Shown here: positions 10,143 through 14,408 of the stretch, in pieces
How the letters are laid out: each line of letters opens with the position of its first letter
Numbering within the stretch: the first letter of the stretch is position 1
DNA from: Opitutia bacterium UBA7876
GTDB taxonomy: Bacteria; Verrucomicrobiota; Verrucomicrobiia; Opitutales; Seribacteraceae
Direction: 5' to 3'
Assembly: GCA_002500665.1 (NCBI GenBank)
Contig: DLRY01000046.1
Span: forward strand, 6,462 to 70,461
Length of the DNA stretch: 64,000 nucleotides
The notes under the pieces: model-generated
The model's database searches: none
Seen by the model: only the letters and a program-made list of their open reading frames with translations
Told to the model about the DNA's origin: nothing
Translations under genes and position numbers: made by a program

Positions 10143-10268
10143 CTAGGGAGTGGTTACGGGGCCCAAACTCATCAAATCCCAAAGCAGGGAAACGATCTGA
10201 ATGGCCACCATGAGAGAGAGTCCCACGAGCACTATGATCACCCATTTCCAAGGGAGCTTGCGTTTCAA
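10143..10268 (-). CDS. 41-aa small single-pass membrane protein (below the ORF-track cutoff)
   Basis: TTG start overlaps the upstream TGA (TTGA). Translation MKRKLPWKWVIIVLVGLSLMVAIQIVSLLWDLMSLGPVTTP*: basic N-terminus followed by one hydrophobic helix. Confidence 0.6.
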   Translation of the reverse strand: MKRKLPWKWVIIVLVGLSLMVAIQIVSLLWDLMSLGPVTTP

Positions 10269-11650
10269 TCGACGCTCTTCCCGTTTTCAGTCAAGCCCCT
10301 TGATCGAAGCCATTGAAGAGCATTTTGATAACGGGCTCCGTCCTGAGCATCCTCCGTGGGACCGGACGGACTTTCGACGCCCTCCACAACCCTCGCCTTG
10401 AGCAATTCCTCGATGCCTGAAAAACCTCGAACCTTGGGCTGGCTAGGCGACGTTTCGACTTCTCCCTTCTTTCCGGAATCGAACAGTCGACGCAGGGAGT
10501 CATAAGTGGGACGTGAGTCGTTCCCCAGATTCAAGAGCGTACCGTCTAGGTCGTTCCGAGAAGGTGGCCTGAGAATCCCAGGGGAGTTTTTTTCGTCTGA
10601 AAAGCCTACCCTCTTCCCCGCGTCATCACGTCCGGCCGCCTTTTCTGATGAATCAAGAAAGCCGACCCGGGATAAAGCCTCGTTTCCCGCAGAGTTATCA
10701 GCCTGTAACGCCTGTGCTGAAAAGTCGACCAAGTTGCCGGGGTTGATTCCAGGGCGGTCCACCGGCCCTAGGCTCCGCTCGAAGCCCGACACCATGCGGT
10801 TCGACGAAGGGGTCTCAGCCCCAGGGGAGCCATCAAGTAGCTGAATACCTCGGTTCACCGGGTCTTTCTCATCGTCGGCTGTGGAAGGTCTCAGGACGAT
10901 ACTTGTATTCTTTACTTGATCAAGGTTGTTTGGAACGGCCCTCTCTGGAACCTCAACGGAAGGCCTAAGTTCAGTGGAAAGGCCGCCATCGTCAATGGGA
11001 TCGTTCGAGGAAACAGATTCGGAGGGATCCCGAGCAACAGGGCTTGCACCCGCAGGAGGGCCGGGGACGGGAACCTCATCCGGTTCGGTCGTATCCTTGG
11101 ATGGTAAAACCGGCTTTAAGGAGGAATCTACGGAAAGGCCTGCTTCAGGGACGGAATGCTTCCCCGGCAGAGTATCCGCTTCACCGGAAACGACCTCAAC
11201 TGCCGGGTCCAAAGATTCGGAACCTTTGTCCATGGTAGAGTTTTCGTTAGCCTTGAAGGACTGTGCGTCATCCGCAGAGCCATCAGGATTCTCCTGCGTG
11301 GGATCGGTGGAAACGTCCGAACTCTCCGAAAGCTCATCCTTTGTAGACTCCGGTTCGGAGGAGCCTTTACCGTGAGGAGGAGTTTTCTCATTCTTGGTCG
11401 AGCCCGTAATCCCTAAGCCGGAAGCGCCAGGACTTGCCTCGTTTTGACTAGGGTGATCGGCGGGAGAAACGGAAGGCATGCCTTGCGTGCCCTTCCCTCT
11501 CTTGCCGGAATGGGTTTCAGCGGGGGGAACCGAAGACGTTTCGTTCCCCTCGCCCAAGAGGTTCTGCCCGTCATCCTTTGGAGTGGTGGCGCAACCGGCC
11601 CAAAGGAACAAGGCCGCAAAACCGATGGAAACAAGCAAGGGAGTCGTCAT
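10265..11650 (-). CDS. Low-complexity, probably disordered lipoprotein
   Basis: Probable start MTTPLLVSIGF at 11650, lipobox LWAG-C, Ser/Pro/Glu/Asp-rich body. Confidence 0.7.
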   Translation of the reverse strand: MTTPLLVSIGFAALFLWAGCATTPKDDGQNLLGEGNETSSVPPAETHSGKRGKGTQGMPSVSPADHPSQNEASPGASGLGITGSTKNEKTPPHGKGSSEPESTKDELSESSDVSTDPTQENPDGSADDAQSFKANENSTMDKGSESLDPAVEVVSGEADTLPGKHSVPEAGLSVDSSLKPVLPSKDTTEPDEVPVPGPPAGASPVARDPSESVSSNDPIDDGGLSTELRPSVEVPERAVPNNLDQVKNTSIVLRPSTADDEKDPVNRGIQLLDGSPGAETPSSNRMVSGFERSLGPVDRPGINPGNLVDFSAQALQADNSAGNEALSRVGFLDSSEKAAGRDDAGKRVGFSDEKNSPGILRPPSRNDLDGTLLNLGNDSRPTYDSLRRLFDSGKKGEVETSPSQPKVRGFSGIEELLKARVVEGVESPSGPTEDAQDGARYQNALQWLRSRGLTENGKSVD

Positions 11651-11654
11651 TCGA

Positions 11655-14408
11655 TCAATCCTGGATAGAAGCGGAGGAGTTTGCAGTGGTCTTGCCAAGC
11701 GGATTGAGGGCGGCAACGAGAAGATCGATCATCAGCGAGAGCGAATCTCCACCCGACTGGCTGGACTTGACCTTCATCTTGAAGAAACCGGTCGAGTTAC
11801 CCCTCACCCGAGACCCTGTCTCTATAGAATCGGAATCAAAGCCTTCAAAACCGGTTGACTTGGTCAGGTCGATCCTCTCAAGCAGGTCGATGGTGGTCTG
11901 GTAATCCAGCCTTTGCAGAAAAATCTCCACGAATTCCCCAAACGCACTTGAAAGAACGGCAGAGTTCGAACCATCTCGGACGGCGTCCAATTTGCTCGCG
12001 ACCCTCAAACCAAAATCCGAGTCTAGGACCGGCTTCTCGTAGGCGTATTCCCCATCAAGGGAGATTTCTCCGGAACTGGCCTTGGCCTTCAAGACCAAGT
12101 CGAAGGAAAGGAATTCGCGGAATTGGTTGAACAATTCCTCCTCCTCGGATGTTTTCTTAAATTTTCCGAAAAAATTCGAGCCGTTGAGGGCAAGGGCAAG
12201 ATCATAGTCGTTTCCGGAAAGCCTGGAACTGAAGGAGGAAGAGAAAACTTCAGCGCCTCCCCCAGAAACGAAGACCTGCTCAAGTTCCTTGTCCAGAAAG
12301 GCTGGGTCCGGTTGATCGGACCACCATGAGGTAAGCATTACGAGGCAATGCTCGTCCAAGCCCAGCGACACGTGAGCTGATTTGTGCTGGACGGATAGAA
12401 AGCGCGGAGAGTCGCGTTTGACCACTTTCCAAATCGGATTCTGAGATTTAAGGTCCAGTTTGTGAAGGATGAAATCCTTAAGCTTGGCTTGGTCGGCAAT
12501 GGGAAGGACAAGGCCGAAGACGACGTCAGAGGCACGCTTGTCCATATACTCCATGCCGGGGAATTGAAGGAAATACAAAACCCGACCATCCGGTTTGATC
12601 CCGCAGGAGTATGGGTCCCAAGCCAAGTCGCCCAGGAAAGAAACGCGCTTGGTTAGATAACCGGAAAGAATCTTGGGCACGCCGACTTCCTCCATCATTC
12701 GGATACCGGAAAAGGAACAGACTCCGAATGCCTGCTCGGGAACGTAAGAGAAGGCCCGCCCGTCGGGCTTGGATAAAGCATTGGCAGAGGGAGTGTCGAT
12801 AACGGCGGACGAACCGGAACCGTCATTATCTTCTATCAAAGCCGACAAACCCCATAGGCTTACCCCTCCAAGTAGGAGGATTAGAGGTAGATTCGCCAAA
12901 CGAAAGAAACCGGTCTGAGTGGCAGAATCTCCCTCGCTTGCCTCATCAGGCGAATCGGGCTCGGGATCCTTGCTACGAAGGAGCGATGCGTTATATGCTA
13001 TAACGAGAGTAACGGCCAAGGGGTCGAAAACAAGAACCAGGATGAGGATAAACCATTTTACGACCCGGTTAACGGCTTTGTCGGTGGCCTCCTTGATCAG
13101 GATGGGGTTTTCCGTGGCTTCAGCAGCAGCCACCTCGGAATCGAAGGCTCGAGCCACGAATTTGAAGGAACCAATGTCGGTCGCCCGAATTTTTCCATCG
13201 AGATCGAGGATTTGGCTCTCAGCCTGTTCTTTCTTGGCCAACAACTCCCCCTTCTTGGCTTCCAGTTCCGCCGAACTGTCCGGGCCGAAAACCGATTCGG
13301 TCTCGCTCAAGGCCGTCAGCTTGCGACTAGCTTCCGCGATCTCCGACTCAAGGGACTTGATCCGATCGTCCACCGCACCGCGAGCCTCTTGCAGGTTCTG
13401 GAGGGCTGTCTTGACGTTGTCGGCCTGTTCGGCCCCTCCTGTCGTTAGCCCCGTTATCTTAAGACTGGCCTCTGAAATCTCACTCTGAATGAGGGCAATG
13501 CGTCCATCCAGAGCCTTGTACCTCTTGTCCATGTCATCCCTTGCCTTTTGAGCCGCCGCGGTGATACCTGCAAGGGTTGCTCGCAGGGCTTCTCGTTCTC
13601 CGGCTTGGTTCTTGAGCAACTCGTTTGCCTTCTTGATTCCGTCCTCGAGAAAAGTTCTGCCTTTGTCTCGGTAGACCTTTACCGCGGAATCGAGCTGGGC
13701 CAGACGTTCATTCGCCTTGGCCTCCTTGGCCAGTTCCTGCTCAATCCTCAGGTCAACCTCCTTCTTGTAATCCTTCTTCTGGTCCTCCAGGACGGTGATA
13801 TCCTGCCTCCGGATTTGGATGACGGACTCCAGTCGCTTCTGCTCGGCCTCCCTTCTTCCGCGCTCACCCACGATCATCTGGTCGGTTTCCTTGGCCAAGT
13901 TTGCCTTGGACGCCTCGGCGGCCTTAATATCATCGCGTCGCTCGGATATGTAGGACTCCAACCTTCTCCGTTCGCTTTCCTGCTTTTCCTCGCGCAGGGC
14001 GGATCCTTTCTGGCCGGAAGTCTGGTAGGCTGCGATGAGACGGTCGTACTCCACCTGCTGGCGCTGCAGGCTCACGATTTCCTTCTCATACCCTTCTACT
14101 TGGTTAAGGGTCTGCTCGAAAGCCTGAGAAAGGTAGCCGTAGATACCGGCCGAGGTAATGCCAATAAGAAGAGCGACCGCAACTACCAGATACGTCCTCA
14201 GCGTCTTGTTGCAGGTCTTCCATTGACGATAGAGGAAGGAGGCCGCGATGAGCTTGCCGAACTCGAGGCTGGAGGCCATCACGATAATCGGGATGGTGAA
14301 GGAACTAACAGCCCCGAAGGTCAGCGCGATTCCCCTAACGCTAAAATATGCCGCGCACCCTGCGATGAATAGAGCCGCCCCCCCTATCAACAATGTGAAT
14401 ACATTCAT
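11655..14408 (-). CDS. Large membrane protein: 3 N-terminal TMs, long coiled coil, 2 TMs, ~400-aa C-terminal domain
   Basis: Hydrophobic segments at aa ~1-95, heptad-rich aa ~95-410, motif VKWFILILVLVFDPLAVTLVIAYN, a further TM, then a globular domain. Confidence 0.75.
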   Translation of the reverse strand: MNVFTLLIGGAALFIAGCAAYFSVRGIALTFGAVSSFTIPIIVMASSLEFGKLIAASFLYRQWKTCNKTLRTYLVVAVALLIGITSAGIYGYLSQAFEQTLNQVEGYEKEIVSLQRQQVEYDRLIAAYQTSGQKGSALREEKQESERRRLESYISERRDDIKAAEASKANLAKETDQMIVGERGRREAEQKRLESVIQIRRQDITVLEDQKKDYKKEVDLRIEQELAKEAKANERLAQLDSAVKVYRDKGRTFLEDGIKKANELLKNQAGEREALRATLAGITAAAQKARDDMDKRYKALDGRIALIQSEISEASLKITGLTTGGAEQADNVKTALQNLQEARGAVDDRIKSLESEIAEASRKLTALSETESVFGPDSSAELEAKKGELLAKKEQAESQILDLDGKIRATDIGSFKFVARAFDSEVAAAEATENPILIKEATDKAVNRVVKWFILILVLVFDPLAVTLVIAYNASLLRSKDPEPDSPDEASEGDSATQTGFFRLANLPLILLLGGVSLWGLSALIEDNDGSGSSAVIDTPSANALSKPDGRAFSYVPEQAFGVCSFSGIRMMEEVGVPKILSGYLTKRVSFLGDLAWDPYSCGIKPDGRVLYFLQFPGMEYMDKRASDVVFGLVLPIADQAKLKDFILHKLDLKSQNPIWKVVKRDSPRFLSVQHKSAHVSLGLDEHCLVMLTSWWSDQPDPAFLDKELEQVFVSGGGAEVFSSSFSSRLSGNDYDLALALNGSNFFGKFKKTSEEEELFNQFREFLSFDLVLKAKASSGEISLDGEYAYEKPVLDSDFGLRVASKLDAVRDGSNSAVLSSAFGEFVEIFLQRLDYQTTIDLLERIDLTKSTGFEGFDSDSIETGSRVRGNSTGFFKMKVKSSQSGGDSLSLMIDLLVAALNPLGKTTANSSASIQD

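What the first reader, a model, noticed from the sequence alone, without database searches (positions are those of the whole stretch)
11655..14408. Possibly phage-related TM/coiled-coil membrane protein fused to an extra C-terminal domain in a host operon
Seen: N-terminal AAYFSVRGIALTF...MASSLEFGKLIAASFLYRQW...LIGITSAGIYGYLSQA, a ~300-aa coiled coil with internal duplications (ERRRLESYISERRDDI / EQKRLESVIQIRRQDI and LDGRIALIQSEISEAS / VDDRIKSLESEIAEAS), then GSFKFVA...VKWFILILVLVFDPLAVTLVIAYN. From recollection, not a search, these two membrane motifs resemble a conserved hypothetical protein common in marine T4-like and other large phages. Here they carry an extra TM and a ~400-aa domain, with no phage genes nearby. 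Inference: a phage-related membrane protein in a host envelope role (periplasm-spanning scaffold, pore or superinfection exclusion).
Basis: inference. Interest (0 to 1): 0.6.

Follow-up and report, generated by a model that had tools for sequence, protein, structure and literature searches.

The report
Phage-type membrane stalk protein, host-adapted
A marine Opitutae bacterium carries a chromosomal gene whose membrane base and long coiled-coil stalk come from a protein family otherwise found in large phages, here fused to an extra periplasmic domain and always paired with a floppy lipoprotein, which most likely makes a bridge across the cell envelope whose role has never been studied.

Summary
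The 917-aa ORF at 11655-14408 (-), every quoted motif and both internal repeats are present.

The core consists of TM1-3, a roughly 310-aa coiled coil and a TM4 carrying FDPLAV. It is homologous to 176-513-aa hypothetical proteins of large and jumbo phages, including Pelagibacter phage Mosig and Xanthomonas phage XacN1. At least 589 IMG/VR contigs encode a relative. The local Pfam and PHROGs libraries do not cover the family, and it is not DUF4407.

The long form adds a fifth TM and a 390-aa domain. It is a real fusion, conserved in Verrucomicrobiota and Planctomycetota. The added domain folds with high confidence like the Treponema lipoprotein TP0453 and is a remote DUF4836 relative.

Three results are new here:
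- In at least 72 of 77 genomes the gene is followed, here after 4 nt, by a disordered lipoprotein gene.
- The lipoprotein's conserved C-terminal Trp motif is predicted to dock on the added domain.
- E49, K52, D462 and P463 inside the membrane, and the stalk tip, are conserved from phage to cell.

Best reading: a phage-derived inner-membrane stalk protein rebuilt as an envelope-bridging two-gene module. Its physiological role is unknown. Earlier notes of this scan described phage members of the family on other DNA.

The parts
11655..14408 (-). Long-form gene (917 aa, P0001)
   Evidence: ORF and translation. Full-length homologues at 50-96% identity and 99% coverage. Single copy in its own genome.
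14121..14408 (-). N-terminal membrane module, residues 1-96 (TM1, TM2 with invariant E49 and K52, positive cytoplasmic loop 61-72, TM3)
   Evidence: Hydropathy. About 50-58% identical to the short phage-type forms in A3. E49 and K52 are invariant in 58 viral and 34 cellular rows. The TM2-TM3 loop has a net charge of +3.
13179..14120 (-). Coiled-coil stalk, residues 97-410, predicted as an antiparallel hairpin with its turn at 250-253
   Evidence: AF2 model, pLDDT 82: helix 140-249, then return helices 254-409. Fold matches are to SMC, Rad50 and chemoreceptor hairpins only. The region spans 266-383 aa in long forms against 71-212 aa in viral forms.
13584..13703 (-). Conserved stalk-tip motif, residues 236-275 (LAQLDSAVKVYRDKGRTFLEDGIKKANELLKNQAGEREAL)
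   Evidence: The motif is aligned between long forms and the short phage-type forms: RLxxLD...GG(L/F)F...KK..EL...Q..ER. L239, D240, L264, Q268 and R272 are at least 90% conserved.
13926..13973 (-). Repeat 1a (residues 146-161, outward arm)
   Evidence: 10 of 16 identical to 189-204; 0 of 200 shuffles reach this.
13797..13844 (-). Repeat 1b (residues 189-204, outward arm)
13464..13511 (-). Repeat 2a (residues 300-315, return arm; faces 1b across the hairpin)
   Evidence: The position relative to the tip at 251 follows from the model.
13326..13373 (-). Repeat 2b (residues 346-361, return arm; faces 1a)
12990..13178 (-). Interfacial motif TDIGSFKFVA and TM4 with invariant D462-P463 (residues 411-473)
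   Evidence: Invariant columns. This stretch forms the second tblastn piece in phage hits.
12828..12989 (-). Acidic loop (474-499) and TM5 (500-527), found only in the long form
   Evidence: 159 of 160 long forms have TM5, and short forms lack it. DUF4836 relatives carry a signal anchor or lipobox in the same place.
11658..12827 (-). C-terminal TP0453/DUF4836-like domain (residues 528-917)
   Evidence: AF2 model with pLDDT 88.6 and pTM 0.86. TP0453 matches at Foldseek E 2.5e-6 and VIA Z 13.2. DUF4836 clusters match at TM 0.63. The profile reaches true DUF4836 proteins.
10265..11650 (-). Partner gene: a 461-aa disordered lipoprotein (signal peptide and lipobox LWAGC at 11591-11650)
   Evidence: A 4-nt gap follows the P0001 stop. 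A co-directional lipoprotein gene follows the long form in at least 72 of 77 genomes and in distant loci.
10292..10333 (-). Conserved C-terminal Trp motif of the lipoprotein (RYQNALQWLRSRGL; W469 of P0002)
   Evidence: This is the only conserved part of the partner, and its W is invariant. It forms the predicted interface with the C-domain.

Best explanation
The locus is a two-gene envelope module built on a membrane protein of phage type.

Gene 1 encodes an inner-membrane protein with this predicted layout:
- The N-terminus is in the cytoplasm, followed by TM1-3.
- A rigid antiparallel coiled-coil hairpin (residues 97-410) stands in the periplasm, with arms of about 150 residues, roughly 20 nm. 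Its tip is conserved.
- The chain returns to the membrane through TM4. TM2 and TM4 carry the invariant buried residues E49, K52 and D462-P463.
- A short cytoplasmic loop and a fifth TM lead to a periplasmic TP0453/DUF4836-like domain held at the membrane surface.

Gene 2 is translationally coupled. It encodes a lipoprotein that is almost entirely a disordered tether and ends in a short Trp motif that docks on that domain.

Together they would tie the inner membrane to whichever membrane holds the lipid anchor, probably the outer one, beside a stalk long enough to reach across the periplasm. The module would act as an envelope bridge, spacer or sensor.

Shown: homology to the phage family, the fusion, the partner gene, the folds, the conserved residues. 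Inferred: the topology, the binding, outer-membrane sorting of the lipoprotein, and the physiological role.

The cellular form most likely arose once, from a phage short form joined to a signal-anchored DUF4836-type gene.
For: Phage homology:
- tblastn finds both membrane modules in Mosig, XacN1, RAS14/CM1, Xoo-sp13, Mel-JY01, RsoM2USA, the immuto phages and huge uncultured phages, at E 1e-12 to 1e-22.
- At least 589 IMG/VR contigs encode a relative. The best 80 are all short forms of 176-513 aa.
- Short forms lie on 100-200-kb contigs with split multisubunit RNA polymerase and ribonucleotide reductase genes.

The fusion is real. The long form occurs in Opitutia, Verrucomicrobiia, Kiritimatiellia, Phycisphaerae and Tepidisphaerales.

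Topology:
- The TM2-TM3 loop has a net charge of +3, and the segment after TM3 is net negative.
- The C-domain's structural relatives are all extracytoplasmic proteins.
- Its DUF4836 relatives have the domain straight after a lipobox or signal anchor.

Hairpin: the AF2 model.

Conservation: the tip motif is shared by short and long forms. E49, K52, D462 and P463 are invariant in 92 non-redundant rows.

Partner: the 4-nt gap and the lipoprotein gene in at least 72 of 77 genomes.

Predicted binding of the C-domain to the lipoprotein C-terminus:
- The median score was 0.73 and the best of 3 controls was 0.01.
- That mark was reached by 58 of 80 solved complexes and 2 of 110 mismatched pairs.
- The runs agree in at least 22% of contacts, and the partner's pLDDT is at least 33.
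- The interface falls on the invariant Trp motif.

Direction of transfer:
- The cellular rows form one side of a branch, nested in a 97* set with 16 viral rows; 42 further viral rows lie deeper.
- The gene is sparse in the phylum (3 of 301 genomes) but held in its own family (45 of 76).
Against: No experiment exists for any member. The topology is inferred.

The predicted complex rests on a partner segment with low fold confidence (pLDDT 33-43), and one of the three runs scored only 0.31.

Lipoprotein sorting rules in this phylum are unknown, so the anchor could sit in the inner membrane. The absence of Asp at +2 in 65 sequences is only the E. coli rule.

The tree is unrooted, and the cellular clade has 74% support, which is not decisive.

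A phage subgroup can extend the tail after TM4 with a Pro/Thr-rich segment. Such segments are more typical of exported regions, which sits awkwardly with a cytoplasmic tail.

The gene's rarity in the phylum shows it is not core envelope machinery.
Confidence: 0.5

Rival explanations
1. A fusion or remodelling device like a two-component spanin. The inner-membrane coiled-coil protein and a lipoprotein in the other membrane pull the two membranes together. In phages this would serve lysis. In the bacterium it would serve vesicle formation or membrane remodelling.
For: Some short forms give weak matches to the PHROG Rz-like spanin family across TM3 and the start of the coiled coil (E 3e-5 to 1.6e-3). 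The long form is paired with a lipoprotein. The stalk tip carries a conserved Gly-hydrophobic-Lys loop. In phage Mosig the gene follows a glucosaminidase gene.
Against: No lipoprotein gene lies next to the viral forms (0 of 67 downstream, 0 of 77 upstream). Viral neighbours are replication, transcription, Hsp20 and PhoH genes, with one holin among 71 proteins. P0001 itself has no spanin match. Both ends of the coiled coil sit in the same membrane, unlike Rz. The partner is about 430 aa and disordered, not a 40-60-aa o-spanin.
Confidence: 0.12
2. A domesticated phage gene that works as superinfection exclusion or another anti-phage barrier at the envelope.
For: The core is of phage type, and the gene is patchy across the phylum (3 of 301 genomes). 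Many phage-encoded envelope proteins exclude other phages (general knowledge).
Against: There is no match to known defence families. The gene sits among housekeeping genes in conserved synteny, not in a defence island or prophage. It is single-copy and vertically held in its genus (34 of 43 genomes). The added domain and its partner have no defence parallel.
Confidence: 0.12
3. An energised machine. The four-helix membrane base, with buried E49, K52 and D462, conducts protons or ions. It uses that energy to move the stalk or the bound lipoprotein, as TolQR-TolA acts on Pal.
For: Buried charged residues are invariant in every member. The design (an inner-membrane base, a long helical periplasmic part and a domain that binds a lipoprotein) parallels Tol-Pal. 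That parallel is drawn from general knowledge, not from homology.
Against: There is no sequence or fold similarity to MotA/ExbB/TolQ or to MotB/ExbD/TolR. The buried charges could equally be a structural salt bridge. No oligomer was modelled.
Confidence: 0.13
4. The opposite topology. The coiled coil and the C-domain are cytoplasmic, making a membrane-tethered cytoplasmic scaffold as assumed for DUF4407-like proteins, and the lipoprotein is an unrelated neighbour.
For: Coiled coils of this size are common in the cytoplasm, and the fold matches are SMC, Rad50 and chemoreceptor arms. A phage subgroup has a Pro/Thr-rich tail after TM4.
Against: The positive-inside pattern argues against it. Every relative of the C-domain is exported. 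The lipoprotein linkage is nearly universal and the docking is predicted. A few phage tails carry a TacA1-like antitoxin segment, which is a cytoplasmic kind of domain.
Confidence: 0.08

Closest known systems
Unnamed family of hypothetical membrane proteins of large phages (e.g. Pelagibacter phage Mosig Mosig_00157, Xanthomonas phage XacN1 ORF242, Microcystis phage Mel-JY01 WWT39498; a newer Pfam entry PF28422 is recorded on two short relatives)
   Same: The N-terminal three-TM module, the stalk-tip motif, the GSFKF interfacial motif and the FDP-bearing TM4 are shared. The N-module is about 50-58% identical in A3, and E49, K52, D462 and P463 are invariant.
   Different: Phage forms are 176-513 aa and have a much shorter stalk (median 107 against 319 residues). 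They lack TM5, the C-terminal domain and an adjacent lipoprotein gene.
TP0453 of Treponema pallidum and the DUF4836 (PF16120) family
   Same: The C-terminal domain has the same two-lobed alpha/beta fold (Foldseek E 2.5e-6; VIA Z 13.2, 226 residues aligned at 4.4 A). Its profile reaches true DUF4836 proteins at E 5e-8 to 7.5e-4. All are extracytoplasmic and membrane-anchored just before the domain. TP0453 is a lipoprotein of the inner leaflet of the outer membrane (PMC7521688).
   Different: Here the anchor is a transmembrane helix of a larger protein, not a lipid. P0001 itself does not match the Pfam model at E up to 1, and sequence identity to TP0453 is about 10%. Whether it inserts into membranes or binds lipid, as reported for TP0453, is unknown.
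Two-component phage spanins (Rz / Rz1)
   Same: Both pair an inner-membrane protein carrying a periplasmic coiled coil with a lipoprotein encoded next to it. Some short forms give weak PHROG matches.
   Different: The stalk here is a hairpin with both ends in one membrane. The partner is long and disordered and is predicted to bind the added domain, not the stalk. There is no lysis context.
Outer-membrane lipoproteins with disordered linkers that reach inner-membrane partners (LpoB-PBP1B, RcsF-IgaA), and Tol-Pal (from general knowledge, not tested here)
   Same: The principle is shared: a lipid-anchored protein with a flexible tether contacts the periplasmic domain of an inner-membrane protein, which makes the contact sensitive to envelope geometry.
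   Different: There is no homology to any of these proteins. The tether is far longer (mature lipoprotein median 430 aa). A rigid stalk of phage origin stands beside the binding domain.
DUF4407 (PF14362)
   Same: The overall layout is the same: N-terminal TMs, a long coiled coil and a C-terminal TM with an Asp and a Pro. This is visible in the sequences.
   Different: There is no HMM match and none in the window's own genome. The profile-profile comparison gave 22% probability, over coiled coil only.

Membership tests
Phage short-form family (unnamed here) | N-terminal module with AGxAAxFSVxG, SLExGKL and ITSxGxYGxL | tested here: met
   The alignments show these columns invariant or nearly so in cellular and viral members.
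Phage short-form family (unnamed here) | C-terminal TM with VFDPLA, preceded by the (D/E)IGxFKF motif | tested here: met
   D462 and P463 are invariant in 92 rows. This stretch forms the second tblastn piece in phage hits.
Phage short-form family (unnamed here) | Size and architecture: 176-513 aa, ending after TM4 | tested here: not met
   P0001 has TM5 and a further 390-aa domain. It is a fused derivative.
DUF4407 (PF14362) | Match to the Pfam model | tested here: not met
   There is no hit at E up to 1 for P0001 or its parts, and no match in the window's own genome.
DUF4407 (PF14362) | Remote homology of the membrane modules | tested here: inconclusive
   hhalign gave 22% probability, over coiled coil only. 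The DUF4407 side had just two sequences.
DUF4836 (PF16120), C-terminal domain only | Score over the Pfam gathering cut-off | tested here: not met
   P0001 528-917 has no hit. Of 36 relatives, 11 give weak hits, the best at E 0.002.
DUF4836 (PF16120), C-terminal domain only | Superfamily-level relation (profile and fold) | tested here: met
   The profile of A1 finds seven true DUF4836 proteins at E 5e-8 to 7.5e-4 in 1.84 billion sequences. The Atlas fold search gives TM 0.63 and the feature score is 0.95.
TP0453-like fold | Two-lobed alpha/beta fold covering most of the domain | tested here: met
   VIA Z 13.2, with 226 of 251 residues aligned over model positions 19-371. The next match scores Z 9.1. 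Foldseek probability is 1.00.
TP0453-like fold | Lipid-anchored lipoprotein that inserts amphipathic helices into a membrane | not testable with these tools
   The anchor here is TM5. Membrane insertion would need experiments.
Two-component spanin (Rz/Rz1) | i-spanin with a single N-terminal TM and a free periplasmic C-terminus | tested here: not met
   The stalk returns to the membrane through TM4.
Two-component spanin (Rz/Rz1) | A small o-spanin lipoprotein gene embedded in or adjacent to the i-spanin gene, within a lysis cassette | tested here: not met
   Viral forms have no lipoprotein neighbour and no consistent lysis context. The cellular partner has a median mature length of 430 aa.
Known anti-phage defence proteins (PADLOC) | Match to any defence model | tested here: not met
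   P0001, its parts and P0002 give no match.
Holins | Match over threshold to a holin family | tested here: not met
   The only matches are Phage_holin_5_2 at E 0.029 (15 bits against a cut-off of 29) and PHROG holin at E 0.56.

The most novel reading that the evidence does not exclude
A phage invention has been captured once by PVC bacteria and rebuilt. The invention is a four-helix membrane base with buried E/K/D residues carrying a rigid periplasmic coiled-coil 'ruler'. In the bacteria the stalk was lengthened two- to three-fold by mirrored duplications in both arms. It was coupled to a TP0453-like receptor domain and a long tethered outer-membrane lipoprotein. The result would be a new kind of trans-envelope device that measures or sets the distance between the two membranes, possibly driven by ion flow. 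The phage short forms would then be a widespread, unrecognised means by which large phages manipulate the host envelope.
Probability: 0.2. Interest if true: 0.85.

Novelty: new variant of a known kind. Interest (0 to 1): 0.62.

Why it matters
The core family is abundant in large marine and freshwater phages: at least 589 viral contigs, plus jumbo phages of Xanthomonas, Ralstonia and Stenotrophomonas. The libraries used here do not describe it, and I found no study of it.

The cellular derivative is informative because its added parts reveal the geometry. They include an exported-type domain, a partner lipoprotein and a lengthened stalk. Together they point to an envelope-spanning role that could then be tested in the phage proteins too.

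The locus would also be a clear case of a bacterium turning a phage membrane protein into stable chromosomal envelope equipment. It offers a lead into the poorly known envelope biology of Verrucomicrobiota and Planctomycetota.

Tried and rejected
- **Lipoprotein signal in TM1.** The invariant-looking I/L-A-G-C18 fits a lipobox in the first alignments. Wider viral sampling shows N, T, S or A in place of Cys, and F or L at position -1. It is therefore not a family feature.
- **DUF4407 membership** was rejected.
- **Pfam, PHROGs and NCBIfam** on P0001 and its parts gave only sub-threshold coiled-coil, tetraspanin or holin noise. Phage members were equally unassigned.
- **PADLOC** gave nothing.
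- **Fold search of the core model** against PDB and viral models returned only generic long coiled coils, such as SMC, Rad50, dynein and tape-measure proteins. It gave no information on the membrane base.
- **C-terminal domain against phage genomes:** no match. The domain did not come with the phage core.
- **Lysis-cassette context in phages** was not found.
- **PF28422** is recorded on two short relatives. It is absent from the local Pfam copy, and the paper search returned nothing listed for it, so its name is unknown to me.
- **The original TP0453 papers** could not be opened. Only their titles and a secondary description were used.
Full report
**Observation.** The minus-strand ORF at 11655-14408 encodes 917 residues. 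Residues 146-161 match 189-204 at 10 of 16 identities, which none of 200 shuffles reached. Residues 299-315 match 345-361 at 9 of 16 identities over eleven consecutive offsets. Hydropathy gives three N-terminal TM segments, a fourth at 448-473, a fifth at 500-525, and then about 390 residues.

**Known-family searches.** Pfam, PHROGs and NCBIfam give nothing above noise for the whole protein or its parts, including DUF4407. The window's own genome has no DUF4407 match. A profile-profile comparison with two true DUF4407 proteins aligned only coiled coil, at 22% probability.

**Phage relationship.**
- tblastn of residues 1-520 against 50,697 phage records found 14 records. In most of them both membrane modules are matched as two pieces flanking a shorter middle.
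- These include Pelagibacter phage Mosig, Xanthomonas phages XacN1 and Xoo-sp13, Stenotrophomonas phages CM1 and RAS14, Microcystis phage Mel-JY01, Ralstonia phage RsoM2USA, the Flavobacterium immuto phages and three huge uncultured phages. E-values run from 1e-12 to 1e-22, and the genes are annotated as hypothetical.
The best 80 all encode short forms of 176-513 aa, and none carries the added domain.
- Short forms from the protein database sit on 100-200-kb marine contigs with split multisubunit RNA polymerase and ribonucleotide reductase genes, the signature of jumbo phages.
- Their neighbours are ordinary large-phage genes: endonuclease, Hsp20, sigma factor, PhoH and structural proteins. 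There was one holin among 71 proteins and never a lipoprotein gene.
- The C-terminal domain has no phage match.

**The long form is a real, old fusion.**
- Full-length relatives at 50-96% identity abound in marine metagenomes.
- A second clade of 808-871 aa shares the whole architecture at about 28-35% identity, including a Phycisphaerae member.
- In one genome per species, 135 loci encode the N-module. The 80 listed are almost all Verrucomicrobiota (Opitutia, Verrucomicrobiia, Kiritimatiellia) or Planctomycetota, with ORFs of 808-1106 aa.
- Of 160 long forms, 159 have TM5.
- The gene is single-copy here. It is present in 45 of 76 genomes of its own family but in 0 of 20 of one genus. It occurs in only 3 of 301 genomes sampled across the phylum.
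- It lies among housekeeping genes in conserved synteny.

**Tree of the membrane modules.** In a tree of 92 non-redundant rows, the 34 cellular rows form one side of a branch with 74% support. They lie inside a well-supported (97) set that also holds 16 viral short forms, while 42 other viral rows branch more deeply. The tree is unrooted. Together with the narrow cellular range and the broad host range of the phages, it favours capture from a phage.

**The added domain.**
- An alignment of 36 relatives gave a confident model (pLDDT 88.6, pTM 0.86).
- Its best solved match by far is the Treponema pallidum lipoprotein TP0453. Foldseek gives E 2.5e-6 and probability 1.00. VIA gives Z 13.2 with 226 residues aligned at 4.4 A.
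- The first lobe also resembles the PknH sensor domain, TiME, LpqN and DcrB, all extracytoplasmic proteins.
- Predicted-structure and feature searches point to DUF4836. The Pfam model touches 11 of 36 relatives weakly.
- A profile of the domain, run against 1.84 billion representatives, found only 84 proteins. Apart from long forms and their fragments, the seven weak hits that were checked are true DUF4836 proteins.
- In those seven the domain follows a lipobox or a signal anchor directly. TM5 therefore looks like the signal anchor of a DUF4836-type gene that was joined to a phage-type core.

**The partner.**
- Four nucleotides after the stop codon begins a gene for a 461-aa protein with a signal peptide and the lipobox LWAGC.
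- The same arrangement holds in distant relatives. Of 77 species genomes with a complete long-form gene, 74 have such a downstream ORF, and at least 72 of these carry a lipobox.
- The partner's sequence is not conserved except for the last 70-130 residues. These end in a Trp motif, RYxxALxWIRxxGR in the marine clade and a different Trp motif in the other clade.
- The linker is 76% small, polar or charged residues, and no member has Asp at +2.
- A controlled complex prediction of the C-domain with this C-terminal segment supports binding. The median score was 0.73 and the best of three controls was 0.01. That mark was reached by 58 of 80 solved complexes and 2 of 110 mismatched pairs. The runs agree in at least 22% of contacts, and the partner's pLDDT is at least 33. 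The contacts centre on the Trp motif and on C-domain residues 293-302, 315-327 and 368-377.
- This prediction is the model's own confidence, not a measurement.

**The core.**
- The AF2 model (pLDDT 82) shows a helix at 140-249, a turn at 250-253 and returning helices to 409, which is an antiparallel hairpin. Fold searches match only generic hairpin arms.
- The TM2-TM3 loop is strongly positive (+3) in cellular and viral members alike, and the segment after TM3 is net negative. With an exported C-domain behind TM5, this places the stalk in the periplasm.
- The stalk region is 266-383 residues in long forms, which makes arms of roughly 20-28 nm if fully helical. In viral forms it is 71-212 residues.
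- The two repeat pairs lie mirror-wise about the tip. The stalk therefore appears to have been lengthened on both arms in register.
- The tip is the best-conserved part of the stalk and is shared with the short phage-type forms.
- E49 and K52 in TM2 and D462-P463 in TM4 are invariant in all 92 rows and in 66 viral sequences.

**Reading.** The locus is a phage-derived inner-membrane stalk protein refitted as a two-gene, envelope-bridging module. What it does for the cell is not known.
- A spanin-like role is weakened by the lack of lysis context and of a lipoprotein partner in phages.
- A defence role is weakened by the housekeeping setting and the absence of defence matches.
- An energised, Tol-like mechanism remains open because of the buried charges.

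**Earlier notes of this scan.** Earlier notes described phage members of this family on other DNA. They reported an A10 slip site that opens a Pro/Thr-rich extension, and a TacA-like tail. I confirmed the A10 run and the open alternative frame in six viral loci. I found a TacA1 match in one of 66 viral members, and in an Atlas cluster of such proteins.

Noticed in passing
L101, L102, L103, L111, L113, L127 (3' end of the short-form gene, e.g. L101:7078-7095): A phage subgroup of 363-366-aa short forms ends with an A10 run just before the stop codon. Another frame stays open into an acidic linker, a long (Thr-Pro)n stretch and a conserved GPYYVPWKK module. Earlier notes of the scan proposed programmed slippage here.
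   Followed up: partly
Viral short forms of alignment A7; Atlas cluster: The tails after TM4 vary. EF-hand matches occur in 3 of 66 members and a TacA1 antitoxin-like match in 1 of 66. One viral Atlas cluster of 415-aa proteins carries TacA1 in 73% of its members.
   Followed up: partly
L087:6001-7068 and the ORF 29 nt downstream: In one Verrucomicrobiota MAG the long-form gene is split just before TM4. A 355-aa piece is followed by a 430-aa piece that starts at the VKW...FDPLAV helix. This is a frameshift, an assembly error or a pseudogene.
   Followed up: no
L079, L092: Contigs labelled 'Akkermansia muciniphila' MAG and 'uncultured Klebsiella sp.' MAG carry an N-module typical of the freshwater Opitutae clade. 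The labels look like binning or naming errors.
   Followed up: no
window 13326-13973 (-): The two internal repeat pairs sit mirror-wise on the two arms of the hairpin. Residues 146-161 face 346-361, and 189-204 face 300-315. This implies matched lengthening of both arms, which one tandem duplication cannot produce.
   Followed up: partly
P0166, P0227: The protein database records Pfam PF28422 on two short relatives. That entry is newer than the local Pfam copy, so its name and scope could not be read.
   Followed up: partly
Lipoprotein partners of L010, L012, L061-L094 versus L015-L059: The partner's C-terminal motif comes in two types that follow the two long-form clades: PFRLSEWIDD...HQAWR...LL against Y..LR.F...WL...RY..AL.WIR..GR. 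This hints at co-evolution with the C-domain.
   Followed up: no
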